From Gammaproteobacteria bacterium (lineage in GTDB: Bacteria; Pseudomonadota; Gammaproteobacteria; WOZS01), in assembly GCA_011620135.1 (NCBI GenBank), contig WOZS01000005.1, forward strand, positions 1 to 59,601: a stretch of 59,601 bases of DNA. The letters run 5' to 3'. Of this stretch, positions 287 through 14,131 are shown in pieces. Within the stretch, counting starts at the first letter, position 1; every line of letters starts with the position of its first letter. A program made the position numbers and the translations under genes. Under the pieces are notes generated by a model that was given only the letters and a program-made list of their open reading frames with translations, had not been told where the DNA came from and did no database searches.

Positions 287-1180
287 ATGAGGCTCGAGCG
301 GCACAGCGGCGCCTCATGGATCGAAAAGGCGCGGGCCTGGGCGGATCTGATCCGGCTGCGCAACCCCACGGGCTTTCTGCTGTTGCTGTGGCCCATGCTG
401 TGGGCGTTGTGGCTGGCGTCCCAGGGCCGACCAAACCTTCGCTTGCTGGCCATCATGACAGCCGGCGCCTGGGTGTGCCGTGGTCTGGGTTGTGCCATCA
501 ACGACCTTTGGGACCGGCACCTCGATGCCCAGGTGGCGCGCACCAGATCCAGGCCCCTGCCCAGCGGGCGCCTGCGCAAGGATGAGGTGCTGCTGGGAGG
601 TGCCGCCATGGGGCTGGTGGCCGTCTTGCTGTTGGGGCTGTTACCATCAGCCACATGGCCCTGGGGGCTGGGAGGCGCCTTGTTGACTGTCACCTATCCC
701 TTGACCAAGCGCATCCTGGCCCTGCCGCAGGCCTATCTTGGCCTGGCCTTCGGCTGGGCCGTGCCCATGGCCTTCGTGGCAGTCTCGGGCAGCGTGAGTG
801 CATTGGGTTGGCTGGTCTTTGCCAGCGCGGCCATATGGGCGCTCATCTATGATGGTTTTTATGCCATGGCTGACGAGGCCGATGACAGAAAGGCCGGTGT
901 GCGTTCCATGGCTGTGTCGCTGGGTGCACATGTGCTGCCGGTCATTGCCGGCTGCCAACTGGGCATGATGCTGCTCTTGCTGGGCATCGGTTGGGCAGCG
1001 GATCTGGCCTGGCCCTATTTCCTGGCTCTGCTGGCAGTGGCTGGGTTGTTCCAGCGTCAGCAGGCCGTGGTCAGGCGTTTTGGTCATGAGGCTGGGTTGC
1101 GCGCCTTCCACATGAACCAATGGGTGGGGGCGGTGGTTTTCATGGGTATTGCAGGAGGACTGATGAGCCATGGCGGATAA
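287..1180 (+). CDS. ubiA: 4-hydroxybenzoate polyprenyltransferase
   Basis: LIRLRNPTGFLLLLWP start, Asp-rich motifs INDLWDRHLDAQVARTRSRPLPSG and YDGFYAMADEADD, multiple TM helices. Confidence 0.95.
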   Translation: MRLERHSGASWIEKARAWADLIRLRNPTGFLLLLWPMLWALWLASQGRPNLRLLAIMTAGAWVCRGLGCAINDLWDRHLDAQVARTRSRPLPSGRLRKDEVLLGGAAMGLVAVLLLGLLPSATWPWGLGGALLTVTYPLTKRILALPQAYLGLAFGWAVPMAFVAVSGSVSALGWLVFASAAIWALIYDGFYAMADEADDRKAGVRSMAVSLGAHVLPVIAGCQLGMMLLLLGIGWAADLAWPYFLALLAVAGLFQRQQAVVRRFGHEAGLRAFHMNQWVGAVVFMGIAGGLMSHGG

Positions 1181-2255
1181 GCCCTTGACGGTGGATGGGC
1201 AGGGACAGCAGGCGCCCTGGGTGCGCCGCCTCATGCCTTGGTTGCTGGCCGCAGCAGGGCTGATTCTGGCCTATCGGTTGCGTGCCGTGCTGTCGCCGTT
1301 TCTGATCGGCATGGCCATTGCCTACATGGGGCAGCCGCTGGTGGAGCGTTTGTGTCGGCTGCATCTGCCACGGTCTGCTGCGGTTGCCGTGGTATTCACG
1401 ATGGTGTTCGGTGTGGTCATCCTGCTGGTGATATTGGTAGTACCGGTGTTGATCGATCAATTCCTCGTGCTGATCGAGCGGCTGCCCACCTTGTTCGATG
1501 ATCTGCAGAAATTGCTGCGCCGCTTCGGGGTCCATGTGCCACCGTTCGATATCCGCTCCTTGATCAATGGCATGGCCGCCCATTGGCGGGAAGCTGGAGG
1601 CGTGGCGGCGCGCCTGGCTGCCTATGCAGGACGTTCCGGGGCTGCATTGTTCATGTTTCTGGCCAACCTGGTGCTGATTCCGGTGGTGAGCTTTTATCTG
1701 ATGCGCGACTGGCATCAGGTGGTGGCTTGGGGGCGTTCCCTGATTTCTCCGCGCTGGGTGGAGCGCCTGGATGATTTCTTCGTGGAAGCCGACCGAGCCC
1801 TGGGCGCCTTCCTGCGGGGGCAGGTGCTGGTGATGCTGGTGTTGGCTGTGATCTATACCCTGGGCTATACCCTGGTGGGTGTGCCCCAGGCCGTGCTGGT
1901 GGGCTTTTTTGCCGGCCTGATGAACTTTGTGCCCTATCTGGGCCATGTCATGGCTTTCCTGGCGGCCAGCGCCTCGCTGCTGGTTTCCGGCCAGTTGGAT
2001 TGGTCCGCGATGCTGGGTGTGGTGGCTGTGCTGGCGGTGGGCCAGGCCATGGAGCAGTGGTTTCTGACGCCCCGGCTGGTGGGCGAGCGCATCGGTATGC
2101 ATCCTGTGGCGGTGATGTTTGCTTTGTTGGCTGGTGGCGAGCTCTTCGGATTCACAGGGCTGCTGCTGGCGCTGCCGGCTTCCGCGGTGGCCGGTGTGGT
2201 GGTGCGTCATGTGCGGCTGTGGTGGCATCAGGACGGAAGCCGCCAGTTGCCATGA
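1170..2255 (+). CDS. AI-2E (PerM-like) family membrane transporter
   Basis: Hydrophobic 361 aa with LSPFLIGMAIAY, FLRGQVLVM, NFVPYLG and LTPRLVGERIGMHPVAV motifs; usual neighbour of hda. Confidence 0.9.
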   Translation: MADKPLTVDGQGQQAPWVRRLMPWLLAAAGLILAYRLRAVLSPFLIGMAIAYMGQPLVERLCRLHLPRSAAVAVVFTMVFGVVILLVILVVPVLIDQFLVLIERLPTLFDDLQKLLRRFGVHVPPFDIRSLINGMAAHWREAGGVAARLAAYAGRSGAALFMFLANLVLIPVVSFYLMRDWHQVVAWGRSLISPRWVERLDDFFVEADRALGAFLRGQVLVMLVLAVIYTLGYTLVGVPQAVLVGFFAGLMNFVPYLGHVMAFLAASASLLVSGQLDWSAMLGVVAVLAVGQAMEQWFLTPRLVGERIGMHPVAVMFALLAGGELFGFTGLLLALPASAVAGVVVRHVRLWWHQDGSRQLP

Positions 2256-2944
2256 AACGGCCCCGCTGGCGGCAGACTGCCCTGGCCCTGCCGCCTTTGC
2301 AGGGGCCCACATTGGCCAATTTCATCATCGGCGACAACGCTGTGTTGCTGCACCTGCTGGAGCAGATCAGCGCCGGGGCTGCCGTTCCAAGGCGCATGCA
2401 TCTGGTGGGGCCCGCCGGCTGCGGCAAGAGTCATCTGCTGCATGCCGTGGGGACGGCGGTCCTGCAGCGCGGCGGGATGGTGCGCAAGATCGATCTCGAG
2501 GAGATTCCTGCGGTGGATGATGCCTGCTGGCAGTTGAGCGAGCTTGTCATCATCGATGGCCTGGACGTGACACGGCTCGATCCCCAGCGAGCCGGCCAAC
2601 TGGTGGCCCTGGATGCCCATGGTGGCGGGGCATGGCTTTCGGCCAGCAGGACCCACCCCGGTTCATGCCCGGCGCTGGTGCCGGACCTGGCCTCGCGCCT
2701 GGCGGCAGACAGCTTCGTGGTGCAACCGCTTGACGAGCAGGGCCGGGAGCATGCCCTGCGGGCCTACGCCAGGGACCGGGGTATCATGCTGTCGGAACAT
2801 GTCTGGCGCTATCTGTTGGCCCGGGCCGAGCGGAGCATGACCGAGCTTACAGCGCTGCTGGACCGCATGGACCGTGCGTCCCTCAGTGAGAGTCGCCCCA
2901 TCACGGTGCCTTTCCTGCGCACTCTCTTGCAGTCCACATCCTGA
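2252..2944 (+). CDS. hda: DnaA regulatory inactivator Hda
   Basis: ATG at 2252 overlaps the upstream stop (ATGA). Clamp-binding-like QTALAL, NFIIGDN, Walker A GPAGCGKSHL, PDLASRL, RSMTEL. Confidence 0.85.
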   Translation: MKRPRWRQTALALPPLQGPTLANFIIGDNAVLLHLLEQISAGAAVPRRMHLVGPAGCGKSHLLHAVGTAVLQRGGMVRKIDLEEIPAVDDACWQLSELVIIDGLDVTRLDPQRAGQLVALDAHGGGAWLSASRTHPGSCPALVPDLASRLAADSFVVQPLDEQGREHALRAYARDRGIMLSEHVWRYLLARAERSMTELTALLDRMDRASLSESRPITVPFLRTLLQSTS

Positions 2945-2950
2945 TCCCTC

Positions 2951-4024
2951 CTAACTGATGCGCCGCAGCAGAACCAGGCCCAGGATCAGCACCATGGTAC
3001 CGGGCAGCAGCGCAGGCAGTGGCGCACCCATGGCTATGGTGACGCCCAGATAGATGGTGAGCTTGTTGAGCACATAGAAACCGATGCCCAGGCTCAACCC
3101 CAGCACCAGTCGCCGCCCGCTTGAGGCTCGCCCCCAGGTGCCCAAGGCCAGGGGGACTGCCAGCAGCAGCAAGGCCATGATGGACAGGGGGCTGGCCAGT
3201 TGCTGCCAGAGGGCATAGCGGTAGGGGTTGGGGTCCTGGTGTTGCTGGCGAAAGGTTCTGATGATGGCAATCAGCTTGGATGGGGGCAGGCTTTCTGTGG
3301 GCAGCAGCAGCAAACCGAGGTTGCCCGGCGGCAGCGGCGAGGAGATGCTGAGTGTCTCTTGCAATGGGGTGCGCACCAGCATGTTGCCTTGCATGTGGCG
3401 CACCACCACCCGAGAGAGCAGCCAGGGCTGCCCATGGCGCACCAGGACGTTGGCCGCACTGATGCTTTCCTGCAACAGGCCATCCTTGTCGAAATACAGC
3501 AGATCCACATCGCTGAGATGCTGACCATGACGGATGCCGCGGACCCGCATGACGAGCCCATCATGGCGCACATAGAAGCCTTGTTTGCCCGTCTCCTGGG
3601 CAGGCAGGGATTCGGTCTTGAGCGCCTTGTTGAGATAGGCGCTTCTGGCCAGGGGTGGCATGATCCATTGGGCCAGTGCAATGTCGGCCAGCAGCAGGAT
3701 CGAGCCCGTGACAAGGACTGCCTTGGTGATCTCTCGCACCGACAGGAAGCATGAGCGGATCACCAGCAGCTCACAGGACTGGTTCATGGCCCCCAGGGCC
3801 ACGGAAACACCCAGCAATGCGATCACCGGCAGCAAGCCGATGATGGTCTGCGGCAGGGTCAAAAAAACAAAAAGCAGCGCGTCCAGCAGGGTATAGCGGC
3901 CAGGTTCCAGATCATCGATCTCCTGGACCAGGATAATGACGCTGAACAGGCCGCCCAGCGCCATGGTCACCATGATGAAGCCACGCAGCAGTTGGGCTGC
4001 TATATAGCGCTGCAACCGGTTCAT
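2951..4024 (-). CDS. lptG: LptG/YjgP-YjgQ family permease, probably a sphingolipid-locus paralogue
   Basis: True start is MNRLQRYIAAQLL at 4024 (ATGA overlap with lptF stop), not the 730-aa ORF start. 3 TM, beta-jellyroll, 3 TM; YRYALWQQLASPLS motif. Confidence 0.85.
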   Translation of the reverse strand: MNRLQRYIAAQLLRGFIMVTMALGGLFSVIILVQEIDDLEPGRYTLLDALLFVFLTLPQTIIGLLPVIALLGVSVALGAMNQSCELLVIRSCFLSVREITKAVLVTGSILLLADIALAQWIMPPLARSAYLNKALKTESLPAQETGKQGFYVRHDGLVMRVRGIRHGQHLSDVDLLYFDKDGLLQESISAANVLVRHGQPWLLSRVVVRHMQGNMLVRTPLQETLSISSPLPPGNLGLLLLPTESLPPSKLIAIIRTFRQQHQDPNPYRYALWQQLASPLSIMALLLLAVPLALGTWGRASSGRRLVLGLSLGIGFYVLNKLTIYLGVTIAMGAPLPALLPGTMVLILGLVLLRRIS

Positions 4025-5139
4025 GATCGATGCCTGCTCAGCATGAGCCCTATCAGCAGGGCACCCAGCACCGCGATGGGAATCAGGAACAGGCCGGGGA
4101 TGGCCGGCAGGTTGTTGGACTGCATGAAACCTTTGAGGGCGGCTCCGCTGTTGTAATAGAGGGCTGCCACGGCCAGGGCAACCAATACCTTGCCAAAGCG
4201 GCCCTTGCGTGGTGGGCCTCTGCTCAGCGGTATGGCCAGGATGCCGAGCATCACCGCAGAGACCGGTGACCACAGGCGCCATTGCAGTTCGGCGGTGTTC
4301 GAGGGCGTTGCTTCCTGCCACAGCCTGGCGCTGGGAAGCGCCTTGGTCTTGGTGACGGCCTCCCGGGGCGGAGGCAGCGGAATATGCACCATGAGAACCT
4401 GGAAATGCACCGCTGTATCCGCCTGGGGTGGCGCGGCCAGGATATAGAGCCAGCCCTTCTGGAAAAGCAGGCCGTGACCGCTTGCTTCCTCGCCGGCCCC
4501 TGTGTGTTCCGTCACAGCCTGGGCGCGGATCACCCAACGCGATGTGCCGTTTTGCTGATCGAAATACACACCGGTCAGCTGGTTTCCCGCACGACCCTCG
4601 GCAAAGAGCACACTCCTGCCCAGCAACTGGAAGTGGCCGGGCTCCAGGCTGGTGAGGCTCAGGTTTTGCATGGCCGCGCGCCTTTGCTCGTAGAGCATGC
4701 CGTAGCCCCATGGCCTGACCAGCAGGCTCAGGTAGGCGGCGACACCAGCCACCAGCAGGATTAACGGCAGCAAGGCCTGGAACAGCTGCGGTCCACCCCA
4801 ACCTGCCGCCTTCATGGCCACCAGTTCCTGGTCGCTCTGCAGCCTGCCAAGACCGATGATCATGGAAAGATACAGTGCCATGGGCATCAGTACATCCATG
4901 GCCAGCAGCAGCTTGATGCCCACCACCCGACCCAGCGCGCCAGGCGTGAGCAGGCCGGCATGCTGGGAGATCAGCTCGCTGGTGGCGAGGTAGCCCGCAA
5001 AGATGCCCATCAATACCCCAAGGACACCCAGCAGTGGCCTGGTGATCTCCCAGAGCAGATAACGATGGAGATGGCCGCCGATCCAGGACAGCTCTGAAGA
5101 GAACGTTCTGGAAATGTCCAGGGTACTTGAATCGTTCAT
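4021..5139 (-). CDS. lptF: LptF/YjgP-YjgQ family permease, probably a sphingolipid-locus paralogue
   Basis: HRYLLWEI, GRLQSDQELVAMKAAG, LEPGHF, AELQWRL motifs. Start uncertain (5139 or 5175). Confidence 0.85.
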   Translation of the reverse strand: MNDSSTLDISRTFSSELSWIGGHLHRYLLWEITRPLLGVLGVLMGIFAGYLATSELISQHAGLLTPGALGRVVGIKLLLAMDVLMPMALYLSMIIGLGRLQSDQELVAMKAAGWGGPQLFQALLPLILLVAGVAAYLSLLVRPWGYGMLYEQRRAAMQNLSLTSLEPGHFQLLGRSVLFAEGRAGNQLTGVYFDQQNGTSRWVIRAQAVTEHTGAGEEASGHGLLFQKGWLYILAAPPQADTAVHFQVLMVHIPLPPPREAVTKTKALPSARLWQEATPSNTAELQWRLWSPVSAVMLGILAIPLSRGPPRKGRFGKVLVALAVAALYYNSGAALKGFMQSNNLPAIPGLFLIPIAVLGALLIGLMLSRHRS

Positions 5140-5325
5140 GCAAGATGACGCGTCATGCCCGGCGGGTTGACCCAAGATAAAACAGGAGCAATCGGTAGTA
5201 TACTATTCATTGAACTGTCACCGAAAATACAAGAAAATGTCATCAAAGGATATTTCCTGGAATCTGGAATTAGGAGAAATACTCATGCATAGCCGCATTA
5301 TCGCAAAAATAGGTCTGTTCAAGCC

Positions 5326-6096
5326 ATGCGCGCGGTAATTCTCAGTGCAGGTCGTGGCCAGCGGCTGATGCCCTACACCGCAGCGCAACCAAAATGCCTG
5401 GTGTCGGTCCTGGGCAAGCCCATCGTGCAATGGCAGATCGATCTTTTGCTGGATCACGGCATCGATCAGGTAGTGGTGGTGATCGGCTATGGTGCCGAGC
5501 AGGTGGAGAAGGTCTTGCATGATCACTATGGCGATGGGGTAACGTGCGTCTTCAATCCCTTTCACCACCTGTGCGATAACCTCATCAGTGCCTGGATGGC
5601 CCGGCCTTTCCTGCAGGGCGACTGCCTCCTGCTGAATGGCGATACGCTGATGGATCATGGCGCCATGGAGACCGTGCTTGCGGGCAAGGAAGGTCCTGTG
5701 GTGCTGGCCGTGCATCGCAAGCCCGTCTATGATGGCGACGATATGAAGGTCCAGTTGCAGGATGAGCGGCTGGTCCACGTCGGCAAACGCCTGTCTGATC
5801 CCATCGATGCCGAATCCATCGGCTGCATCCGCTTCAATGGAACGGGGGCCGGCTGGTTTTGCCATGCACTGGAAGAGGCGGTACGTGATGAGACGTCTTT
5901 GGGGCAATGGTATCTCTCGGTGATCGATCGCATGGCCGGCCAGCATCCAGTCTGGACCCAAGATATTGGCCAGAACCAATGGGCCGAGCTGGATTGTCCG
6001 GCCGATTTGGCCCATCTGCGGGAGGTATTGCCCCGCTGGAATCTGAGGAAGCATGGGTGGCATGCCGCGATGCCAAATGAACCCAAAGCAGGGTAG
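5326..6096 (+). CDS. Phosphocholine/phosphoglycerate-type cytidylyltransferase (LicC/CpgD-like nucleotidyltransferase)
   Basis: MRAVILSAGRGQRL...PKCL, LLNGDT, DDMKV, AESIG motifs of the NTP_transferase family. Substrate unknown. Confidence 0.8.
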   Translation: MRAVILSAGRGQRLMPYTAAQPKCLVSVLGKPIVQWQIDLLLDHGIDQVVVVIGYGAEQVEKVLHDHYGDGVTCVFNPFHHLCDNLISAWMARPFLQGDCLLLNGDTLMDHGAMETVLAGKEGPVVLAVHRKPVYDGDDMKVQLQDERLVHVGKRLSDPIDAESIGCIRFNGTGAGWFCHALEEAVRDETSLGQWYLSVIDRMAGQHPVWTQDIGQNQWAELDCPADLAHLREVLPRWNLRKHGWHAAMPNEPKAG

Positions 6097-6122
6097 GGTT
6101 TATCTGCTGCCTGCTGATTTGC

Positions 6123-6992
6123 TCAACATGCCGCAGCCCGGCGCGCCAAGCATTGTTCCACCAGCATGAGGTCTGCGAGGCTGTCCACGTCAACCGCCGC
6201 TTCGGGCTCATTGAGCACCACAACGCCGATGCGCAGCGCAAAGCGCGCCGAGAGCCGGTGCAGAAGACCTGCCAGGGAGAGCCGGCCCAAGGCATAGGAC
6301 AGCAGGATGCCCGGGCCAAGGCGGCGCGCCATGGTGAAGGGTTGCTTGCGGGCATCCTCCAGTTGCTGCCAGAACGCCACCACCCGGCTTGCATGGGCGT
6401 GGCGCAGGGCAAACAGGTTGGCGCCACAAAAGGCCCCTTCCGCAAAGCGCAGTCTGGTGCGTTTGGAGCCCGGGAAGGCGCTGGCGACACGCTCATGCGG
6501 CACGAGCCCGACGGCCAGGTCCAGTTGGCCATGGCTTGCCGAGGCACAGAAGGCATCGATGATGGCTGGTGTCAGCAGGGCATGGTCGGCGGTGGTAAGC
6601 AGGATGGGCAGCGTGAGATGGCCGAGGCAGGCGGCGGCGCTGCGTGCCGGACTGGCTTGCGGCACCCAATAAGTGCATGCAAGCCCTGGCCTCGCCTGAT
6701 GCAGGCGCTGCGCCAATGCATCGGCTTGCGGAGGATGCGGGCTATCCCACGGGCCGCACAGGGCGACATGGGCGATGGCCTGGCTGGCCTGCAACGCACC
6801 GAGCACCCGCTCCAGCATGGGTTGGCCGGCGACGGGTGCCAGTGCCTTGTGGGTCACACCACGAGCCTCCGCTACCGGATCGGTCCCATGGCGCGCTCCA
6901 GCCAGAACCAGCGCCGTCCAGTTGGCTTGTGGGCGAGCAAAAGCAAAAGATTGCTCCTGGACGATGTCAGTGCTGTTCCAGGGCGCGCTCAT
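6123..6992 (-). CDS. MobA-like NTP transferase (NTP_transf_3) of sphingolipid loci
   Basis: ALVLAGAR..DPVA...HKAL.PV.GQPML and PILLTTADHALL motifs. Start chosen at ATG 6992, overlapping the bCerS 3' end; uncertain. Confidence 0.75.
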   Translation of the reverse strand: MSAPWNSTDIVQEQSFAFARPQANWTALVLAGARHGTDPVAEARGVTHKALAPVAGQPMLERVLGALQASQAIAHVALCGPWDSPHPPQADALAQRLHQARPGLACTYWVPQASPARSAAACLGHLTLPILLTTADHALLTPAIIDAFCASASHGQLDLAVGLVPHERVASAFPGSKRTRLRFAEGAFCGANLFALRHAHASRVVAFWQQLEDARKQPFTMARRLGPGILLSYALGRLSLAGLLHRLSARFALRIGVVVLNEPEAAVDVDSLADLMLVEQCLARRAAAC

Positions 6993-8109
6993 AGATGCGG
7001 TAGCGTTTGTAGGCGATCCCTCCGATCGCCTCGATGATGTCGCGCATGGGGCGGTTTTGCTCCAGGATCCAGGACAGCTCCACCTGTTCCAGGCCGCGCC
7101 GCAATGCAGGCTCCCGCAGGGTATGGATGGCGCGCAGGGCAAGGGCAGCTCCCAGGATGGAGTGCTGGTGGATACGCCGTACGCCCATCAGGGCCACCCG
7201 TCCCCAACGGGGGTAGGCCCCGCCGCCCTTGAGACGCCAGAGCAGCTTGAGAAGGCCGGTTGGGAACAGCCTGCCATGGAGATCCCTGATCACCTCGTTG
7301 AGATTCGGCAGCATGACGATCATGCTCGCAGGTTCGCGATCCACCAGGGCCATCTGGATGAAATCGTCATCCACGATGAAGCGCAGCGCCTGCCCCAGTT
7401 GCTGGAACTCCTTCTGGGTAAAGGGGATGAATCCCCAGTTGTCCGCCCAGGCATCGTTGAAGATGGCGCGCATGGTCTCCAGTTCCTCGGTAAGCCTGTT
7501 GCGCTGCAAGGGGCGGATCGTGATGCGTCGAGCGGTGCGCTGCAAGAGGCGTTCCATGGTTTGCGGCACGGGAAAATCCGGCTTGATGCGGTAAGCCAGC
7601 AGATCCTGGATGCCCCGGTAGCCGCAGCGGGAGATGCGCTGGTCATACCAATGCCGGCCGTGGGGCATCATGATCACAGGCGGTGTCTCGAAACCCTCCA
7701 CCAGGCAGCCGATCTCCTCATTCACAGAAAGGCTGATGGGCCCGCGCAGGCAATGCGCCCCGAAGCGTCTCGCCCATTGCATTGCAGCCTCGAGCAAAGC
7801 GGCAAAGACGGCCTGGTCGTCCACTGCCTCGAGCATGCCGAAAAAACAGGCCCCATCATGGTGGTATTCCTGATGCAGCCGGTCGTACTGTGCGGTGATG
7901 CGGCCCACGGGGCGCTTGCCGTCGAGACATACGAAGGCCGCCACCTCGGCGTGCTCCCGCAGAGGGCTCTTTTTCGACAAGCGCATGGCCTCTTCCAGCC
8001 GCAGCGGCGCCACCCATGCCGGGTCGTCCTGGTAGACCAGATGGGGCACGTCCAGAAATTGCTGACGCTCGCGGCGCGTGGCGACCTGCGTGACTACCAG
8101 TTGCTGCAT
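6967..8109 (-). CDS. bcerS: Bacterial ceramide synthase (tandem-GNAT N-acyltransferase)
   Basis: PHLVYQDDPAWVAPL, VGRITAQ, FFGMLEA, RGPISLSVNEEIGCLVEGF..PP..MMP, AFNDAWADNWGF-like, LSWILEQN motifs; lies next to the spt operon. Confidence 0.8.
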   Translation of the reverse strand: MQQLVVTQVATRRERQQFLDVPHLVYQDDPAWVAPLRLEEAMRLSKKSPLREHAEVAAFVCLDGKRPVGRITAQYDRLHQEYHHDGACFFGMLEAVDDQAVFAALLEAAMQWARRFGAHCLRGPISLSVNEEIGCLVEGFETPPVIMMPHGRHWYDQRISRCGYRGIQDLLAYRIKPDFPVPQTMERLLQRTARRITIRPLQRNRLTEELETMRAIFNDAWADNWGFIPFTQKEFQQLGQALRFIVDDDFIQMALVDREPASMIVMLPNLNEVIRDLHGRLFPTGLLKLLWRLKGGGAYPRWGRVALMGVRRIHQHSILGAALALRAIHTLREPALRRGLEQVELSWILEQNRPMRDIIEAIGGIAYKRYRIYERALEQH

Positions 8110-8638
8110 AGTATGCTATGAATTTCCATGGCTACCCCAAGTACCAGAGAAGCCGGTACTCGAGAAGCCAGTATGTGATAGCTGGCGTATAATGACATCA
8201 GTTCGGGCGGCAGGAAGCATGAGCATCGTAGGACAGATGCCCTGATGAATGCAATGGTTCCCGGGAATGGGGTGAACCTTATAGCGGCCTGGCCGGTTTT
8301 CTGCATGCGGTTTCTTGTATTCGGCGCAGGGTTTGCGCCATAATGGTTTCCTAATTTAGATAATTTTGGATTTATGGCCTCAGGGCCTGCCATGTGGCAG
8401 TATGAAAAGCGCCATACTGCTGGGGATGCGGGCGAGGGCAAAAGGGCAGCCATGGGCTTGTTGCTTGCAGGCAGGCCAAGGGGTTGGCGCGGAGGCATGG
8501 TGTGTTTATGATCCATGGGTAATGCAGGGCAGTTATAAAACGAGAGGCATGGGAAAAGGGGCCTGATGCATGGGCTGCTGGCACCCCATTCTGGCCTGTT
8601 CAGACCTTGAAAAAGGTCAGAAAAATGGAGATGACACA

Positions 8639-10420
8639 TTGACCGAGGCGATCACAGCAACAACCAACAGCGCTCTGCCCTTACGTCTAGGTACATTTGA
8701 AACGCTAACAGAAGCCCTGGAATTCGCCGCAGGTGGTGAGACGGGTTATAACTTTCATAATGGCCGCGGTGCCCTGGAAGAAGCCGTACCCTATGCGCTG
8801 TTGCGCGATCAGGCACAGGAACTGGCGCGCCGCCTGCTGGGCTGTGGGCTCAGGCGCGGCGATCGCCTGGCGCTGATTGGCGAGACCTGGCCTGGGTTCG
8901 TCCGTTTTTTCTTTGCCTGTCAATATGCCGGGCTCGTTCCCGTGCCACTGCCAGCCACCCTGCAACTGGGCGGGCACAAGGCCTATGTGAAGCGGCTGCG
9001 TGCCCTGGTGCAGGCCGCGCAGGCCACCATGGTGGCAAGCCCCATGAGCCTGACGGCGCTTGTGGCGGAGGCTGTGGACGAGCTGGGCATTGCGGTGGTG
9101 GATGAAGACCATCTGCTGGCGGACTGCAGAGCCAGCACCCAACCCCTTGTGCCATCGCGGCCCCATGAACTGGCCTACCTGCAGTTCACCTCGGGCAGTA
9201 CGCGTTTTCCCAGGGGCGTGATGATCACCCAGCGGGCGGTCATGGCCAACCTGCAGGGCATCGTCCAGCATGGGCTCATGGTGCGCCCGGGAGATCGCTG
9301 TGTCTCCTGGCTGCCGTTTTATCACGACATGGGGTTGGTGGGGCTGGTGTTGGGCCCCTTGGCAAGCCAGCTTTCCGTGGATTACCTGCGGACCAGCGAT
9401 TTTGCCATGCGTCCCCGGCAATGGCTGCATCTCATGAGTCAACTCGAGGCCACCATCTCTTTTGGACCGCCTTTCGGCTATGAGCTTTGTGCCCGGCGCC
9501 TGCGCTCTGGGGATATCGCCGAATTGCGCCTGCACGCCTGGCGGGTGGCGGGCGTGGGTGCTGAGACCATCCGCATCGACTCGCTCAAGCGTTTTGCACA
9601 ATTGCTGGAACCTGCGGGCTTCGATGCCCGTGCCTTCGTGCCTTGCTATGGGATGGCCGAATGCTCCCTGGCGGTGAGTTTTGCGCCCTTGGGTCAGGGT
9701 GTGACCATCGAGCAGCTTCACGGAGAAATCCTGGCCCAGGACCTCAGGGCCGTGCCCGCCGATCCGCAGACAGCGCGTCGCGTGGAACTGGCCCGTTGCG
9801 GCCGGGTGCTGCCCGGACTGGAATTGGCTGTGCGCGATGGCCTGGGCCGGCCGGTGGCCGAGCGTACCTTGGGCGTGGTCCATGTGCGTGGCCCCTCTGT
9901 CATGGAAGGCTATTTTGCCGATCAGGCGGCCACAGCAGAGGTCCTCTCGCCAGACGGTTGGCTCAACACGGGTGATGTGGGCTATCTGGTGGATGGCGAG
10001 CTGGTAATCACGGGGCGCATCAAGGATATGATCGTGATCCATGGACGCAACATTTGGCCGCAGGATCTGGAGATGCTGGCCGAACAGCACGAGGGTGTTC
10101 GGCCAGGCGATAGCTCGGCGTTTGCTGTGGTGGATCCTGGCGGTGGCGAGTTGGCGGTGCTGGTGATCCAGTGCCGTGCCAAGGATGATCAGGAGCGTGC
10201 CGGGTTGATCGGCGCCCTGCGGTCAGCCATTCAGGCCGAGTTCGGTATCGATTGCCTGATCGACCTGGTGCCACCTCATACCCTGCCGCGCACCTCCAGC
10301 GGCAAACTGTCCCGTTCCGGCGCGCGACAGGATTTTCTGCGCCGTCGCAGCTGGCCCCAGGCCGATACCCAGGCCATGGGTCTGGAAGGATTGGAGGCTC
10401 CGCAGAGCGCTGTGGGATGA
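8639..10420 (+). CDS. Fatty acyl-AMP ligase / acyl-ACP synthetase
   Basis: LQFTSGSTRFPRGV, SWLPFYHDMGL, PCYGMAE, TGDVG, GRIKD, LPRTSSGK. TTG start at 8639 follows a GGAG RBS. Confidence 0.9.
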   Translation: MTEAITATTNSALPLRLGTFETLTEALEFAAGGETGYNFHNGRGALEEAVPYALLRDQAQELARRLLGCGLRRGDRLALIGETWPGFVRFFFACQYAGLVPVPLPATLQLGGHKAYVKRLRALVQAAQATMVASPMSLTALVAEAVDELGIAVVDEDHLLADCRASTQPLVPSRPHELAYLQFTSGSTRFPRGVMITQRAVMANLQGIVQHGLMVRPGDRCVSWLPFYHDMGLVGLVLGPLASQLSVDYLRTSDFAMRPRQWLHLMSQLEATISFGPPFGYELCARRLRSGDIAELRLHAWRVAGVGAETIRIDSLKRFAQLLEPAGFDARAFVPCYGMAECSLAVSFAPLGQGVTIEQLHGEILAQDLRAVPADPQTARRVELARCGRVLPGLELAVRDGLGRPVAERTLGVVHVRGPSVMEGYFADQAATAEVLSPDGWLNTGDVGYLVDGELVITGRIKDMIVIHGRNIWPQDLEMLAEQHEGVRPGDSSAFAVVDPGGGELAVLVIQCRAKDDQERAGLIGALRSAIQAEFGIDCLIDLVPPHTLPRTSSGKLSRSGARQDFLRRRSWPQADTQAMGLEGLEAPQSAVG

Positions 10421-10424
10421 GGCG

Positions 10425-11348
10425 ATGGCGCTTGTCGCCTTGACCGGGGCCACGGGTTTCGTGGGTAGCGCCCTTGCTCGTTTCCTCATGCAGCGCGGCG
10501 ATCGGGTGCGTCTCCTCCACCGCAGTGAAGCACCTCCTTTTGCCCTCTCTCAGGGCTCCATGTGGGTGCGGGGCGACCTTGACGACCAGGCCGCCCTGGA
10601 TAGAGTGGTTGACGCAACCGATGCGGTGGTTCACTGCGCTGGGGCCATTCGCGGTGCTACAGCGGCAGTCTTTCAGCACACCAACGTGACAGGGACCAAA
10701 AACCTGATGAATGCAGTGAGCAGACAGCCCATGGTGCCATATCTGGTGGTGCTCTCCTCGCTGGCCGCCCGTGAGCCCCAGCTGTCTCATTACGCCAGAA
10801 GCAAGCAGGACGAGGAGCAGGTGGTGGCCCAGAGCGGTCATGCTGCTGTGGTACTGCGACCGCCGGCCATCTATGGACCGGGGGACAAAAGCCTGGCTGA
10901 CCTGTTTGCCTTCCTGCAGCGGGGTTGGTGTCCCATGGTCGGGCGGGGCCGGTTTTCATTGCTTTATATCCATGATCTGCTGGAGGCCATCGCTGTGCTG
11001 CTGCAGCAGCGTCCCTGTGGCGTCATGGCCTTACATGATGGTCGGGAAGGGGGCTATGGCTGGGCGGATGTGGCTCAGGCAGCCCAAAGCGTACTGGGGC
11101 GTCGCGTGCGCTGTTTCAGGCTGCCAGACAACCTGGTGCGTGTGCTGGCGGCCTGCAATACGGCGCTGGGACGGCTGCGGCGTGCCGATCCCCTGTTCAC
11201 CACCGGCAAGGCCCGCGAGCTGCTCCACGCCGACTGGGTCTGTGACAATGCGGCCATCCTAGCGGCGTGCTCCTGGCAGCCCGCATGGCCATTGGCTCGG
11301 GCCATGGGGGCCATGTGGGGCCAGCAGGGCACCCAGGGAATGCCATAA
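10425..11348 (+). CDS. cerR: Extended SDR NAD(P)-dependent reductase, probable ceramide (3-oxo) reductase
   Basis: TGATGFVG Rossmann motif, SSLAA, YARSK catalytic motif, RPPAIYGPGD. cerR identity inferred from its position between the ligase and ACP/spt. Confidence 0.75.
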   Translation: MALVALTGATGFVGSALARFLMQRGDRVRLLHRSEAPPFALSQGSMWVRGDLDDQAALDRVVDATDAVVHCAGAIRGATAAVFQHTNVTGTKNLMNAVSRQPMVPYLVVLSSLAAREPQLSHYARSKQDEEQVVAQSGHAAVVLRPPAIYGPGDKSLADLFAFLQRGWCPMVGRGRFSLLYIHDLLEAIAVLLQQRPCGVMALHDGREGGYGWADVAQAAQSVLGRRVRCFRLPDNLVRVLAACNTALGRLRRADPLFTTGKARELLHADWVCDNAAILAACSWQPAWPLARAMGAMWGQQGTQGMP

Positions 11349-11602
11349 TGGCCCAAGAAAAGCAGGTGGCCCAGGTGATCCTACAGGCCCTGGCGCCATG
11401 GAGTGCACAGCCTGTGACCGAAACCAGCCGGTTTGGAGAGGATATTGCGCTGGATTCGGTGCAATTGATGGAGCTTTTGATGGCGCTCGAGGATCATTTC
11501 GACATAACCATTCCCATGAATGCCGTGGGCGATGTGGCAACAGTGGGAGATCTGTGTGACCTGTTGACCAGGATCCTGGCTGCCCGGGATCGGGGTACGT
11601 GA
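11348..11602 (+). CDS. Dedicated acyl carrier protein
   Basis: 84 aa, acidic, LDSVQLMEL phosphopantetheine site (Ser37), LEDHFDITIP. TAATG overlap with the upstream stop. Confidence 0.9.
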   Translation: MAQEKQVAQVILQALAPWSAQPVTETSRFGEDIALDSVQLMELLMALEDHFDITIPMNAVGDVATVGDLCDLLTRILAARDRGT

Positions 11603-12798
11603 TGCAGGCCAGACCACCTGCCATCTTTCGACGCCTGGAAGAACTGGAGGCTAAGCGTGCGCAGCTGGCCGCAGCCGGGCAGGTGGATCCTTTCTCCGTG
11701 CAGTTCGATCGACCGCTTTCGGCTACGGAAGCCCTGTGGCAGGGTCGGCCAGTGATCCTGTTCGGCAGCAACAATTATCTGGGGTTGAGCTTTGATGCCA
11801 CCTGCCAGGAAGCTGCCTGCCTGGCGGTGCGGCAAGAGGGTACAGGCACCACGGGTTCGAGGATGGCCAATGGCAGCTTCGCAAGCCACCGCGCCTTAGA
11901 AGAGCAACTGGCGGCCTGTTTCGGGTTTCCCTACTGCACCATGTTTTCCGCGGGCTACCTGGCTAATCTGGGCGTGATTGCCACGCTGGCAAGCGATGTG
12001 GTGGTGCTGGATGCCGAATCCCATGCCAGCATCTATGATGGCGCGCGCCTCAGCGGCGCTGATATCGTGCCCTTTCGCCATAATGATCCAGACGATCTGG
12101 ACAGACGGCTGCGCCGACTGGGCGCGCGGGCCTATGGGGCACCTGTGGTCATCGAGGGCCTGTACAGCATGATGGGGGATACCGCTCCCATCGCCGAGAT
12201 CGTGGCGGTCAAGGAGCGCCACGGCGCTTTGCTGGTGGTGGACGAGGCTCATTCCTTTGGCGTGCTGGGGGCGCGTGGCTGCGGCAAGGCCGAGGCCGAC
12301 GGCGTGCTGGATCGCGTGGACATGGTGGTGGGCACCTTCAGCAAGAGCCTTGCTGGGGTGGGCGGCTTTGCCACTGGGCCACACCCCCAGTGGGCTGCCT
12401 TGCGCCTGGCGAGCCGCCCTTATATCTTCACGGCGTCGCCCAGCCCGGCCACGGTGGCTGCCACCCAGCAGGCGCTGGCCATCATTACATCGGATCGGGG
12501 GGCTGCGCTCCGTGAACGGCTGGGTGGCCATGCCCGCAGGCTGCATGCGGGACTCCGGGACATGGACTGGCGATTGGGGGCCGAACCTGGTCCTGTGGTG
12601 GCGGTTGTCCTGGAGGATGCCCAGCGTACCTTGCACCTGTGGCATGCCCTGCTGGAGCGGGGCTATTATGTCAACATGATGATCCCGCCTGCTTCACCAA
12701 GGGGCTTGTCCCTGTTGCGGCTTTCCTTGAGCGCTGCCCACGGGGATGAGCAGATCGATGGTCTGCTCGCAGCTTTTGACGCCCTGCGTCAGACGTAA
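11599..12798 (+). CDS. spt: Serine palmitoyltransferase (alpha-oxoamine synthase)
   Basis: GSNNYLGL, GSRMANG, HASIYDG, DEAHS, PLP Lys in TFSKS, PPASP loop. These resemble bacterial SPTs more than BioF/Kbl; context agrees. Confidence 0.88.
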   Translation: MMQARPPAIFRRLEELEAKRAQLAAAGQVDPFSVQFDRPLSATEALWQGRPVILFGSNNYLGLSFDATCQEAACLAVRQEGTGTTGSRMANGSFASHRALEEQLAACFGFPYCTMFSAGYLANLGVIATLASDVVVLDAESHASIYDGARLSGADIVPFRHNDPDDLDRRLRRLGARAYGAPVVIEGLYSMMGDTAPIAEIVAVKERHGALLVVDEAHSFGVLGARGCGKAEADGVLDRVDMVVGTFSKSLAGVGGFATGPHPQWAALRLASRPYIFTASPSPATVAATQQALAIITSDRGAALRERLGGHARRLHAGLRDMDWRLGAEPGPVVAVVLEDAQRTLHLWHALLERGYYVNMMIPPASPRGLSLLRLSLSAAHGDEQIDGLLAAFDALRQT

Positions 12799-12856
12799 GT
12801 TTCGCGGTGAGGGGGCTTGTGCCCGGTATTCGCGTCCAAGCCGTGGCGATTGGCAC

Positions 12857-14128
12857 TCAGGGGCGATAGGCCAACACCTTGTCGATGCGTTTACCGTCCA
12901 TGTCGACCACCTCGAACCGCCAACCTTCCCAATCGGCATGCTCCCCAGTGGCAGGGATCTTGCCCAGCAACAGCATCATCATGCCGCTCAGGGTATGATA
13001 GCCACCCTTGTCTTCCGGGATGGCTTTGAGATCGAGCAGATCTTGCAGATCGGCAACGGGGATGAAGCCATCCAGCAGCCAGGAGCCATCGTCGCGCTGC
13101 ACGGCCCAGGCCTCTGCTGCGTCTGACACGAAAGCGCCCGTAACCGCTTCCATCACATCCTGCAGCGTCACCACACCTTCCACCTCGCCGTATTCATCGA
13201 TGACAAAGGCCATCTGGATGGGGCTTGCGCGGAATTGCTCCAACAACTCCATGCCAGTCATGCTCTCCTGGACATAGAGGCATGGTAGAGCCATGTCCGT
13301 GAAATCGAGGGGTTGATCCCTGACGATGCAGGCCAGTACCTGCTTGGCCTGGATCACGCCCAGCAGTTTGTTGAGCCCACCTTCGCATACCGGAAACCTG
13401 GAATGTTCCGATGCGATGAGACGTTGCAGGTTGTCTGCCAAAGGCAGACTGATGTCGATGAACACCACGTCGGCACGGGGGGTCATCAGCGAGCCCGCCG
13501 GGCGATCAGCCAGGCGGAAGATGTTGCGGGCCATCCTGTGCTCATGCTGTTCGATGACTCCAGACCGGGAACCTTCCTCAAGCATGGCGTAGATTTCTTC
13601 TTCGGTCACGTTGATGAGCGTGTTTGGCCTGACGCCCATGATGCGCAGCAGGGTGTGGGTCGATGCCGAGAGCAGTATGACAAAGGGGTGCATCAGCAGA
13701 GCCATGATCTGCATGGGTCGGGCCACCAGCCGCGCGATGGGTTCAGGGGTGATCTGTCCGATGCGCTTGGGGACCAGCTCGCCAATGACGATGGACACAT
13801 ACGTCACCACGACCACGACCATGGCGGTGGCACTAAAATCCGCCGTTTCCAGCGGTACAGCCAGCGACTGCAACCAGAGCGACAGCGGGGCAGCCAGGGC
13901 GGCTTCTCCCACGATGCCATTCATGAGCCCAATGGCCGTAATACCGATCTGGATCGTGGAGAGAAAGCTGGTGGGGTCTTCACCAAGCTTGAGTGCTACG
14001 GCCGCGGCATGATCCCCCTGGGAGGCCAGCTTTTTCAGTCGGACCTTGCGGGCCATGACCAGAGAGATCTCGGACATGGCAAAGAGGCCATTGAGCAGGA
14101 TGAGGAAGACGAGGATAAAAATTTCCAT
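12857..14128 (-). CDS. Hemolysin/CNNM family protein (DUF21, CBS pair, CorC-HlyC)
   Basis: NGLFAMSEIS, FLSTIQIGIT, GELVPK, HSRFPV, IDEYG, YHTLSG. Confidence 0.92.
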   Translation of the reverse strand: MEIFILVFLILLNGLFAMSEISLVMARKVRLKKLASQGDHAAAVALKLGEDPTSFLSTIQIGITAIGLMNGIVGEAALAAPLSLWLQSLAVPLETADFSATAMVVVVVTYVSIVIGELVPKRIGQITPEPIARLVARPMQIMALLMHPFVILLSASTHTLLRIMGVRPNTLINVTEEEIYAMLEEGSRSGVIEQHEHRMARNIFRLADRPAGSLMTPRADVVFIDISLPLADNLQRLIASEHSRFPVCEGGLNKLLGVIQAKQVLACIVRDQPLDFTDMALPCLYVQESMTGMELLEQFRASPIQMAFVIDEYGEVEGVVTLQDVMEAVTGAFVSDAAEAWAVQRDDGSWLLDGFIPVADLQDLLDLKAIPEDKGGYHTLSGMMMLLLGKIPATGEHADWEGWRFEVVDMDGKRIDKVLAYRP

Positions 14129-14131
14129 AGC

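What the first reader, a model, noticed from the sequence alone, without database searches (positions are those of the whole stretch)
2951..12798. Complete core ceramide/sphingolipid locus in a gamma-like proteobacterium
Seen: ligase-SDR-ACP-oxoamine synthase operon, a divergent tandem-GNAT gene, two nucleotidyltransferases and an lptF/lptG pair, all contiguous between hda and a CNNM gene. Established: Spt, bCerS and CerR make ceramide in Caulobacter crescentus, whose locus also carries an ACP, an acyl ligase, nucleotidyltransferases and LptFG paralogues. Inference: this host makes and exports sphingolipids. The pathway itself is known, but this nine-gene arrangement in such a host is uncommon and may be undescribed for the lineage.
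Basis: partly seen in the sequence, partly recalled or inferred. Interest (0 to 1): 0.8.

Follow-up and report, generated by a model that had tools for sequence, protein, structure and literature searches.

The report
Known bacterial sphingolipid gene cassette
This stretch carries the already published nine-gene bacterial set for making ceramide, part of its anionic head group and a dedicated Lpt-type exporter; the only new thing is the host, an uncultured proteobacterium with a small genome and no close sequenced relatives.

Summary
All nine genes are real, intact and at the stated coordinates, between hda and a CNNM gene.

- **Spt:** it passes NCBI's curated serine palmitoyltransferase model. 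Its best solved relatives are Sphingomonas SPTs. It falls inside a 100/99-supported SPT clade, away from BioF and Kbl, and the genome's separate BioF-like paralogue groups with E. coli BioF.
- **Ceramide synthase candidate:** the divergent gene folds as a tandem GNAT and sits in the bCerS position.
- **Lpt pair:** it is a second copy. The housekeeping pair lies next to pepA on another contig, and there is a single LptB.
- **Nucleotidyltransferases:** they match Caulobacter CC_1152 (CpgD) and CC_1153.

The same nine genes in the same order and orientation occur in 10 of 80 fetched genomes (Azotobacter, Pseudomonas, Nitrospirota, Desulfuromonadales). This order is published for A. vinelandii and P. 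luteola. The arrangement is therefore not uncommon.

The missing head-group genes are present elsewhere in the genome: CpgA-, CpgB- and CpgC-like genes plus a phosphoesterase. LpxC is also present. The host probably makes LPS plus a ceramide-phosphoglycerate-type lipid.

The host lineage is an orphan: no genome of the same order among the held species representatives, and only 1 of 60 same-class genomes has bCerS.

Verdict: new member of a known kind, low interest.

The parts
2951..4024 (-). lptG2: second LptG-type permease (357 aa), counterpart of Caulobacter CC_1155/CCNA_01213
   Evidence: PF03739 178 bits and TIGR04408 252 bits, cut-off 240. It is only 25% identical to the genome's other LptG on contig C21. 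In 43 of 43 other sphingolipid loci, the linked LptG scores higher with this protein than with the C21 copy.
4021..5139 (-). lptF2: second LptF-type permease (372 aa), counterpart of CC_1156/CCNA_01214; 4-nt overlap with lptG2
   Evidence: PF03739 162 bits; TIGR04407 213 bits, below the cut-off of 230. It is 23% identical to the housekeeping LptF that sits next to pepA on C21. In 44 of 45 loci the linked LptF is closer to this protein.
5140..5325 (.). 186-bp divergent intergenic region between lptF2 and the CpgD-like gene (presumed promoters)
   Evidence: Gene coordinates. No consensus promoter was found here.
5326..6096 (+). CpgD-like (CC_1152/CCNA_01210-type) LicC-family cytidylyltransferase, 256 aa
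   Evidence: PF00483 and PF12804. Best PDB relative is LicC 1jyk. It is 48% identical to the gene in the same cassette position in A. beijerinckii and P. asuensis. That position is Avin_44310, the CC_1152 orthologue, in PMC11324152 S2E. CpgD makes CDP-glycerate (PMC12275187).
6123..6992 (-). CC_1153/CCNA_01211-type MobA/CofC-like nucleotidyltransferase, 289 aa; start overlaps the end of bcerS by 26 nt
   Evidence: PF12804 37 bits. A homologue lies directly downstream of bCerS in 69 of the 82 loci scanned. The sister metagenome contigs call the same 287-aa gene. CC_1153 is needed for CPG2 in Caulobacter.
6967..8109 (-). bcerS: bacterial ceramide synthase candidate, 380-aa tandem GNAT
   Evidence: The AlphaFold2 model (pLDDT 83, pTM 0.82) matches tandem GNATs 7q3a, 2wpw and MshD. 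It is 49% identical to the A. beijerinckii gene in the Avin_44290 (CC_1154 orthologue) position. Homologues occur as natural fusions to Spt-like and acyl-AMP-ligase domains.
8110..8569 (.). 460-bp divergent intergenic region between bcerS and aasR; promoter-like site at 8484-8512 (+)
   Evidence: The site is TTGGCG-17-TATGAT, 9 of 12 matches. The scan as a whole is not above chance. No Rfam family matches. Positions 8120-8183 do not align with the sister contigs.
8570..10420 (+). aasR: acyl-AMP ligase / acyl-ACP synthetase, 616 aa (CC_1165 type)
   Evidence: NF006624 fatty acyl-AMP ligase 771 bits, cut-off 600; PF00501. It is 51-57% identical to the gene in the same position in 45 loci.
10425..11348 (+). 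cerR: extended-SDR ceramide reductase candidate, 307 aa (CC_1164 type)
   Evidence: PF01370 Epimerase 84 bits. GATGFVG at residue 8 and YARSK at residue 123. The position between aasR and acpR is conserved in 41 loci.
11348..11602 (+). acpR: dedicated acyl carrier protein, 84 aa (CC_1163 type)
   Evidence: PF00550 39.6 bits. DSV phosphopantetheine-attachment motif at residue 36. TAATG overlap with cerR and GTGATG overlap with spt.
11599..12798 (+). spt: serine palmitoyltransferase, 399 aa (CC_1162 type)
   Evidence: NF047599 528 bits (cut-off 500), against bioF 313 and Kbl 269, both below their cut-offs. PDB scores: S. wittichii SPT 372 bits, Kbl 207, BioF 182. It lies inside the SPT clade with 100/99 support. 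TFSK lysine at residue 246.
2252..2944 (+). Flank, not part of the system: hda
   Evidence: TIGR03420 157 bits, the best hit though below its cut-off of 194.8. Synteny with the sister contig L096 breaks exactly at 2950.
12857..14128 (-). Flank, not part of the system: CNNM/CorC-family transporter, followed by priA
   Evidence: PF01595, PF00571 and PF03471. priA matches TIGR00595 with 559 bits. This flank is conserved in both sister contigs.

Best explanation
The region is a Caulobacter/Azotobacter-type sphingolipid cassette made of four transcription units.

1. **aasR-cerR-acpR-spt.** AasR loads a fatty acid onto the dedicated carrier AcpR. Spt condenses acyl-AcpR with serine to give 3-oxosphinganine.
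2. **bcerS plus a CC_1153-like nucleotidyltransferase.** bCerS N-acylates the base. CerR reduces the 3-keto group to give dihydroceramide. The order of acylation and reduction is disputed even in Caulobacter.
3. **A CpgD-like cytidylyltransferase.** It makes CDP-glycerate for the head group.
4. **lptF2-lptG2.** This permease pair is expected to borrow the cell's single LptB ATPase to extract the finished lipid from the inner membrane towards the outer membrane.

The rest of the head-group pathway is encoded on three other contigs:
- a CpgB-like lipid kinase, with a fatty-acid-desaturase-family gene upstream;
- a CpgC-like protein, with a divergent metallophosphoesterase;
- a CpgA-like CDP-alcohol transferase.

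The likely end product is therefore an anionic ceramide (di)phosphoglycerate-type lipid, made alongside LPS.

Shown here: gene identities, paralogy, conserved synteny and the presence of all partner genes. Inferred: every enzymatic activity, the lipid product and the export role.
For: - **Family assignments with curated cut-offs:**
- **Spt against BioF and Kbl:** by NCBIfam, by PDB ranking and aligned catalytic motifs, and by tree.
- **Second oxoamine synthase:** a copy on C12 groups with E. coli BioF, so biotin synthesis is covered separately.
- **bCerS:** tandem GNAT fold.
- **Conserved cassette:** identical nine-gene order and orientation in 10 of 80 loci, including A. beijerinckii and P. 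asuensis. This matches the published A. vinelandii and P. luteola orthologue tables for CC_1152-1165.
- **Gene fusions:** Spt-bCerS and bCerS-acyl-AMP-ligase fusions exist among homologues.
- **Second LptFG pair:** a housekeeping pepA<>lptF-lptG locus lies on C21. The window pair is 23-26% identical to it and closer to locus-linked pairs elsewhere. Only one LptB is above the cut-off. In Caulobacter, LptF2/G2 deletions are lethal unless sphingolipid synthesis is off, and the pair binds LptB.
- **Head-group partners elsewhere in the genome**:
  - C14:60180-61583, CDP-OH_P_transf, 44% identical to the A. beijerinckii CpgA-position gene.
  - C45, CpgC-like, 40% identical.
  - C45:36334-37269, metallophosphoesterase, with homologues inside 37 of 80 sphingolipid loci.
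  - C74:27083-28111, the genome's only tblastn match to the A. beijerinckii DAGK_cat kinase.
- **LPS:** LpxC is present.
- **Sister lineage:** two sister metagenome contigs keep the same nine genes at 86-88% nucleotide identity.
Against: - There is no lipid, expression or biochemical evidence for this organism, which is known only as a metagenome-assembled genome.
- No direct sequence comparison with the Caulobacter proteins was possible. Orthology to CC_ genes rests on position in the cassette and on the published Azotobacter-Caulobacter tables.
- The kinase is only 29.5% identical to the Azotobacter one (E 7e-16). This is similar to the 30% the paper reports between the Azotobacter and Caulobacter kinases.
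- LptF2 scores just below the LptF equivalog cut-off, and nothing here shows what it transports.
- The head-group genes are dispersed, so their link to this locus is by homology and by synteny in other genomes only.
Confidence: 0.85

Rival explanations
1. The cassette makes neutral ceramide, or a ceramide with some head group other than phosphoglycerate. The dispersed CpgA-, CpgB- and CpgC-like genes would then serve other lipids, and the two nucleotidyltransferases would activate a different alcohol or sugar phosphate.
For: The window has no kinase, CDP-alcohol transferase or CpgC-like gene. In the 10 loci with the identical cassette checked in detail, these genes follow lptG2 directly, for example in L073 and L055. 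The kinase match is weak at 29.5%. A GT1 glycosyltransferase lies next to the CpgC-like gene on C45. E. coli-type loci are reported in earlier scan notes to carry a different head-group module (unchecked).
Against: The genome does hold one homologue each of CpgA, CpgB and CpgC, plus the locus-associated phosphoesterase. Their closest relatives among the fetched loci sit inside sphingolipid clusters. CpgD-type and CC_1153-type genes are specifically required for CPG2 in Caulobacter. Dispersal over three regions is already described for Nitrosomonas eutropha.
Confidence: 0.25
2. The LptF/LptG pair in the window is simply a diverged LPS-transporter paralogue. It could be specialised for a modified LPS or active under another condition, and it sits next to the lipid genes by accident of cassette history without moving sphingolipid.
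For: Both proteins hit the LPS-export equivalog models, and LptG2 is above the cut-off. Transport was not tested. Bacteroidota and Myxococcus make sphingolipids with a single LptFG pair.
Against: The pair is linked to bCerS in 43-45 of the 82 loci scanned. It forms a group distinct from the housekeeping pair. Caulobacter genetics ties LptF2/G2 essentiality to anionic sphingolipid production.
Confidence: 0.1
3. The oxoamine synthase operon makes a non-sphingoid amino lipid, such as a sulfonolipid-type, alanine- or glycine-derived base, or a signalling alpha-hydroxyketone, rather than a serine-derived long-chain base.
For: Substrate specificity cannot be read with certainty from sequence. The superfamily includes cysteate acyltransferase and CqsA, both of which appear as weaker PDB hits.
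Against: The protein passes the curated SPT equivalog (528 bits against a cut-off of 500). It scores 372 bits with S. wittichii SPT, against 161 with cysteate-C-fatty acyltransferase and 119 with CqsA. It keeps the aligned SHASIYDG, DEAH, TFSK and LLR segments of SPT. It sits in a 100/99-supported SPT clade.
Confidence: 0.04

Closest known systems
Azotobacter vinelandii DJ Avin_44240-44370 and Pseudomonas luteola FOB45_16280-16340 sphingolipid clusters (PMC11324152, Fig. 7, S2E/S2F)
   Same: The order and orientation are identical for the nine genes: spt, acpR, cerR, aasR | cerS, CC_1153-like, CC_1152-like, lptF2, lptG2. This was verified here on the close relatives A. beijerinckii (L073) and P. 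asuensis (L055), with 29-52% protein identity to the window genes.
   Different: In those genomes the CpgA-, CpgB- and CpgC-type genes follow lptG2 directly. Here the cassette stops at lptG2 and these genes lie on contigs C14, C74 and C45. In A. vinelandii aasR is a pseudogene; here it is intact.
Caulobacter crescentus sphingolipid locus CC_1152-CC_1168 / CCNA_01210-01226 (Olea-Ozuna 2021; Stankeviciute 2022; Zik 2022, PMC9393093; PMC11324152; PMC12275187; bioRxiv 10.64898/2026.04.12.717747)
   Same: The gene families are the same: AasR, CerR, AcpR, Spt, bCerS, CpgD (CC_1152), CC_1153 and LptF2/LptG2. There is one LptB for two permease pairs. LPS genes are present as well.
   Different: No LptC2 (CC_1168), CC_1166 flippase, CC_1167 or CC_1157 counterpart is in the locus. 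The gene order differs, and cpgABC are not adjacent. No direct sequence comparison with the Caulobacter proteins was possible with the tools.
Nitrosomonas eutropha sphingolipid genes (Neut_0458-0461, Neut_1105-1106 and others; PMC11324152 S2D)
   Same: The pathway is split over several genomic regions. Spt matches the NCBIfam 'SerpalmtaseBetaP' equivalog.
   Different: In the Nitrosomonas loci fetched here, bCerS, the MobA-like nucleotidyltransferase and lptF2/G2 are together while the aasR-spt operon is elsewhere. In the window the nine genes are contiguous.

Membership tests
Bacterial serine palmitoyltransferase (alpha-oxoamine synthase, SPT clade) | Scores above the curated equivalog cut-off and above BioF, Kbl and ALAS models | tested here: met
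   NF047599 528 bits against a cut-off of 500. bioF 313 (cut-off 426) and Kbl 269 (cut-off 460) are both below their cut-offs.
Bacterial serine palmitoyltransferase (alpha-oxoamine synthase, SPT clade) | Groups phylogenetically with characterised SPT, not with BioF or Kbl | tested here: met
   The window sequence lies inside a 100/99-supported clade of 22 sequences with S. wittichii SPT (PDB 2x8u). E. coli Kbl and BioF are outside. The genome's C12 paralogue pairs with BioF at 98/92.
Bacterial serine palmitoyltransferase (alpha-oxoamine synthase, SPT clade) | PLP-binding lysine and active-site His/Asp/Arg segments conserved | tested here: met
   SHASIYDG, DEAHSFG, GTFSKS (K at residue 249 of the TFSK motif that starts at 246) and PPASPRGLSLLR align with the corresponding segments of 2x8u.
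Bacterial serine palmitoyltransferase (alpha-oxoamine synthase, SPT clade) | Condenses L-serine with acyl-ACP or acyl-CoA | not testable with these tools
   Needs an enzyme assay.
Bacterial ceramide synthase bCerS (CC_1154/CCNA_01212 family) | GNAT-superfamily N-acyltransferase of about 380 aa encoded with spt and cerR | tested here: met
   The tandem GNAT model supports the fold. The gene is divergent from the aasR-spt operon. It is 49% identical to the A. beijerinckii gene in the Avin_44290 position, which the paper lists as 47% identical to CC_1154.
Bacterial ceramide synthase bCerS (CC_1154/CCNA_01212 family) | Direct sequence relationship or clade membership with the experimentally characterised Caulobacter enzyme | not tested
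Only the indirect chain through Azotobacter is available.
CerR (CC_1164) ceramide reductase | Extended SDR with a GxxGxxG NAD(P) motif and a YxxxK catalytic pair, encoded between aasR and acpR | tested here: met
   PF01370. GATGFVG at residue 8 and YARSK at residue 123. The position is conserved in 41 loci.
AasR/AcpR acyl-loading pair (Rhodobacteria type, PMC9386255) | Acyl-AMP ligase and a small carrier protein with a phosphopantetheine serine, co-occurring with spt | tested here: met
   NF006624 771 bits against a cut-off of 600. PF00550 with a DSV motif. Translationally coupled to spt.
LptF2/LptG2 sphingolipid-locus permeases | A second LptF/LptG pair in addition to the housekeeping one | tested here: met
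   The genome has four PF03739 genes. The C21 pair is divergent from pepA, as in the canonical arrangement.
LptF2/LptG2 sphingolipid-locus permeases | Closer to locus-linked pairs of other bacteria than to the cell's own LptFG | tested here: met
   The window pair is 23-26% identical to the genome's own pair. In 44 of 45 loci (LptF) and 43 of 43 loci (LptG), the linked gene scores higher with the window proteins.
LptF2/LptG2 sphingolipid-locus permeases | No dedicated ATPase; shares the single LptB | tested here: met
   Only C14:22451-23161 passes TIGR04406 (376 bits, cut-off 240). There is no ABC ATPase in the locus. A physical interaction is not testable here.
LptF2/LptG2 sphingolipid-locus permeases | Required for sphingolipid transport | not testable with these tools
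   Needs genetics and membrane fractionation.
CPG/CPG2 head-group pathway (CpgA, CpgB, CpgC, CpgD, CC_1153) | CpgD-type and CC_1153-type nucleotidyltransferases present | tested here: met
   Window genes 5326-6096 and 6123-6992. They are 48% and 40% identical to the A. beijerinckii genes in the Avin_44310 and Avin_44300 positions.
CPG/CPG2 head-group pathway (CpgA, CpgB, CpgC, CpgD, CC_1153) | Ceramide kinase (CpgB), CpgC and a PgsA-like CpgA present in the genome | tested here: met
   CpgA-like on C14 at 44%, CpgC-like on C45 at 40%, and a DAGK_cat kinase on C74 at 29.5%. The kinase is the only match to the A. beijerinckii kinase in the genome. Kinase orthology is the weakest link.

The most novel reading that the evidence does not exclude
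This would be a genome-reduced (2.1 Mb), order-level orphan proteobacterial lineage that acquired the nine-gene cassette horizontally and then scattered the head-group genes. Its lipid would differ from Caulobacter CPG2. A fatty-acid-desaturase-family gene is translationally coupled to the only lipid kinase (C74:26031-28111). A metallophosphoesterase is divergent from the CpgC-like gene, and homologues of it sit in 37 of 80 sphingolipid loci, although published comparisons found no CC_1158 orthologue in five of six genomes. Together these could define a widespread but undescribed desaturated or hydroxylated ceramide-phosphate branch of the pathway.
Probability: 0.15. Interest if true: 0.4.

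Novelty: new member of a known kind. Interest (0 to 1): 0.2.

Why it matters
The finding adds one more host to the known range of the Caulobacter-type sphingolipid system: a deep-branching, uncultured proteobacterium with a small genome. It also supports two general points already made in the literature. The nine-gene core travels as a cassette across phyla. LptF2/G2 accompany it in Proteobacteria while a single LptB serves both permease pairs. It opens no new question. Its practical use is correct annotation of this genome: the GNAT and the two nucleotidyltransferases have no NCBIfam name. It is also a compact, intact gene set that could be used for heterologous reconstitution.

Tried and rejected
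- **Rfam, positions 1-17000:** no RNA family, so there is no riboswitch or leader in the 460-bp divergent region.
- **Promoter and terminator scan:** counts were not above shuffled controls. One plausibly placed site lies at 8484-8512.
- **PF01148 search for a CpgC-like gene:** it found only cdsA and was misleading, because CpgC-type proteins hit Tam41_Mmp37 only weakly. tblastn with the A. beijerinckii protein found the gene on C45.
- **Apparent 900-nt antisense overlap on C45:** a 740-aa GT1 ORF and a 475-aa CpgC-like ORF seemed to overlap. This is an artefact of a run of N at about 35400-35500 through which both frames stay open.
- **Taxonomy from Lon:** the result was ambiguous. The lineage's own relatives are 88-93% identical, and the next hits at 63-66% are a mix of gamma- and alphaproteobacteria. 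A LolB-like hit, the absence of GcrA, Hda-type rather than HdaA-type scores and pepA<>lptFG synteny point to the gamma/beta group.
- **Sister-contig genes:** G000 has no homologue of the alkaline ceramidase, FAD oxidoreductase or SBBP protein seen on the sister contig.
- **Composition:** no GC anomaly marks the locus.
- **CpgD structure:** none is in the PDB copy. The best hit for the window protein is LicC.

Full report
**Observation**

Six-frame ORF listing and profile searches confirm nine intact genes at 2951-12798:
- lptG-like, 2951-4024 (-)
- lptF-like, 4021-5139 (-)
- LicC-type nucleotidyltransferase, 5326-6096 (+)
- MobA-like nucleotidyltransferase, 6123-6992 (-)
- 380-aa GNAT-related gene, 6967-8109 (-)
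- operon on the plus strand: fatty acyl-AMP ligase (8570-10420), extended SDR (10425-11348), 84-aa carrier protein (11348-11602) and alpha-oxoamine synthase (11599-12798)

The flanks are hda (2252-2944) and a CNNM/CorC gene (12857-14128), followed by priA.

Start and stop overlaps show tight coupling. These are TAATG, GTGATG, a 4-nt lptF/lptG overlap, and a 26-nt overlap of the GNAT gene with the MobA-like gene. They define four transcription units. GC content shows no anomaly.

**The oxoamine synthase is Spt**

Three results argue against that.
- It passes NCBI's curated equivalog for serine palmitoyltransferase (NF047599, 528 bits, cut-off 500). It fails the bioF model (313 against 426) and the Kbl model (269 against 460).
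- Against all PDB chains the best matches are Sphingomonas wittichii and S. paucimobilis SPT (372 and 359 bits). Kbl scores 207, BioF 182, cysteate acyltransferase 161 and CqsA 119. The active-site segments align, including the PLP lysine.
- A maximum-likelihood tree was built with 20 Spt sequences from named genomes, S. wittichii SPT, E. coli BioF and Kbl, and the genome's second oxoamine synthase (C12). It puts the window protein inside a 100/99-supported SPT clade. The C12 paralogue pairs with E. coli BioF (98/92).

**The GNAT gene is the bCerS candidate**

Pfam gives only a marginal GNAT hit. An AlphaFold2 model built on 20 homologues (pLDDT 83, pTM 0.82) matches tandem-repeat GNATs best: 7q3a, 2wpw/2wpx and MshD. 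This confirms the 'tandem GNAT' description.

The family is large:
- more than 4,900 hits in the word-indexed search;
- 956 representatives of 50%-identity clusters at E <= 1e-30;

Some homologues are natural fusions with an Spt-like domain (P0369, P0389), with an acyl-AMP ligase (P0353) or with a fatty-acid hydroxylase (P0259). This is independent support for a shared pathway.

I could not fetch the Caulobacter sequence. Orthology to CC_1154 therefore rests on position in the cassette and on 49% identity to the A. beijerinckii gene in the position of Avin_44290. The literature lists Avin_44290 as the CC_1154 orthologue at 47% identity.

**The Lpt pair is a paralogue**

- The genome has four LptF/LptG-family genes.
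- The pair on contig C21 is divergent from pepA and scores as well as the window pair on the LptF and LptG equivalogs. I take it to be the housekeeping pair.
- The window proteins are only 23-26% identical to that pair. In 44 of 45 and 43 of 43 other sphingolipid loci, the linked LptF and LptG score higher with the window proteins than with the C21 ones.
- Only one LptB passes its cut-off, and LpxC is present.

This mirrors Caulobacter. There, LptF2/G2 form a complex, bind the single LptB, and can be deleted only when anionic sphingolipid synthesis is off (bioRxiv 10.64898/2026.04.12.717747).

**The two nucleotidyltransferases**

They correspond by family and position to CC_1152 and CC_1153, both required for ceramide diphosphoglycerate in Caulobacter (PMC11324152). 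CC_1152 is CpgD, a CTP:phosphoglycerate cytidylyltransferase (PMC12275187).

**The arrangement is the published one and it is common**

I fetched 80 loci through a bCerS alignment and mapped the window proteins onto them.
- All nine genes lie within 10-13 kb in 14 loci.
- Order and orientation are identical to the window in 10 loci: Azotobacter beijerinckii, Pseudomonas asuensis, six Nitrospirota, one further Nitrospiraceae and a Desulfuromonadales genome.
- The same order is printed for A. vinelandii (Avin_44240 to 44340) and P. luteola in PMC11324152.

The claim that the arrangement is uncommon or undescribed therefore does not hold. Earlier notes of this scan list 74 sphingolipid-locus findings in at least 53 genomes (unchecked).

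**What differs here**

In the Azotobacter and Pseudomonas loci, lptG2 is followed directly by three genes: a PgsA-like transferase (CpgA type), a DAGK_cat kinase (CpgB type) and a Tam41-like protein (CpgC type).

In the window the cassette stops at lptG2. The sister metagenome contig L096 diverges exactly at that point, at window position 2950.

The genome nevertheless has one homologue of each:
- **C14:60180-61583:** CDP-OH_P_transf, 44% identical, lying between tatC and murJ.
- **C45:36306 to about 35500 (-):** CpgC-like, 40% identical. A divergent metallophosphoesterase lies at 36334-37269, and its homologues sit inside 37 of 80 sphingolipid loci.
- **C74:27083-28111:** the only genomic match to the A. 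beijerinckii DAGK_cat kinase, 29.5% identical. It is preceded by a coupled FA_desaturase-family gene. That gene's one relative among the fetched loci (46% identity) sits between the kinase and cpgC in a Nitrospiraceae sphingolipid locus.

A split layout is already described for Nitrosomonas eutropha.

**Host**

The assembly is 2.1 Mb in 76 contigs and is rated complete.
- Among the held species representatives it has no relative of the same order. Of 60 same-class genomes, each from a different family, only one has a bCerS homologue, at 35% identity.
- Lon finds four metagenomic relatives at 88-93% identity. After that comes a drop to 66%, with a mix of gamma- and alphaproteobacteria.
- Four features fit the gamma/beta group: Hda-type scores, a LolB-like protein, the absence of GcrA, and pepA<>lptFG synteny. 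'Gamma-like' is therefore reasonable but not proven.
- Spt and its sister sit on a long branch with no clear donor. Together with the patchy distribution, this fits horizontal acquisition but does not prove it.

**Mechanism**

The steps below are inferred from the Caulobacter work; none was tested here.
1. AasR loads AcpR.
2. Spt makes 3-oxosphinganine.
3. bCerS N-acylates the base and CerR reduces it. The order of these two steps is debated (PMC11087976).
4. The kinase, CpgC-, CpgD-, CC_1153- and CpgA-type enzymes build a phosphoglycerate-type head group.
5. LptB with LptF2/G2 extracts the lipid towards the outer membrane, which also carries LPS.

**Verdict**

The functional interpretation is supported, and the rarity claim is not. 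This is a new member of a known kind and of low interest. The only open points are the exact head group and the role of the dispersed accessory genes.

Noticed in passing
G000 contig C74:26031-28111 (locus L095:4032-6112): A FA_desaturase-family gene (351 aa) overlaps by 4 nt the start of the genome's only DAGK_cat lipid kinase (342 aa). Its single relative among the 80 fetched loci (46% identity, L041) sits between the kinase and the CpgC-like gene of a Nitrospiraceae sphingolipid cluster. It may be a ceramide hydroxylase or desaturase, as with Caulobacter CC_0202.
   Followed up: partly
G000 contig C45:36334-37269 (L094:6335-7270): A metallophosphoesterase lies divergent from the CpgC-like gene. 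Homologues at 37-44% identity lie inside 37 of 80 sphingolipid loci. The published comparison found no CC_1158 phosphoesterase orthologue in five of six genomes, so this may be an under-recognised regular member of the pathway.
   Followed up: partly
G000 contig C45:34111-36333: A GT1-family glycosyltransferase (EryCIII-like_C/UDPGT) converges on the CpgC-like gene. A run of N at about 35400-35500 keeps both frames open and creates false 740-aa and 475-aa ORFs. The GT1 has no homologue in the 80 fetched loci.
   Followed up: partly
L096:12851-18433 (sister metagenome contig, ENA ERZ27283911): In the sister lineage the DNA beyond lptG2 does not encode hda. It encodes a FAD oxidoreductase, an SBBP-repeat protein and a 942-aa neutral/alkaline ceramidase (PF04734/PF17048). 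None of these has a homologue in G000. The synteny break falls exactly at window position 2950.
   Followed up: partly
Proteins P0369, P0389, P0353, P0259, P0242 (one search hits): Natural fusion proteins contain a bCerS-like domain: Spt-like aminotransferase plus bCerS, bCerS plus AMP-binding ligase, fatty-acid hydroxylase plus bCerS, and a doubled bCerS. Only Pfam scans were run, and gene-calling artefacts were not excluded.
   Followed up: partly
whole genome G000: The genome has no relative of the same order, family or genus among the held species representatives (60 same-class genomes were returned). Lon finds only four metagenomic relatives at 88-93% identity, then 66%. It is an orphan, small-genome (2.1 Mb, 62% GC) proteobacterial lineage.
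   Followed up: partly
G000 contig C14:60180-61583 (L011:6181-7584): The CpgA-like CDP-alcohol transferase sits between tatC and murJ, downstream of hisH-A-F-IE. The listed 467-aa ORF is probably over-extended at its 5' end, because the homology starts near residue 80-110.
   Followed up: no
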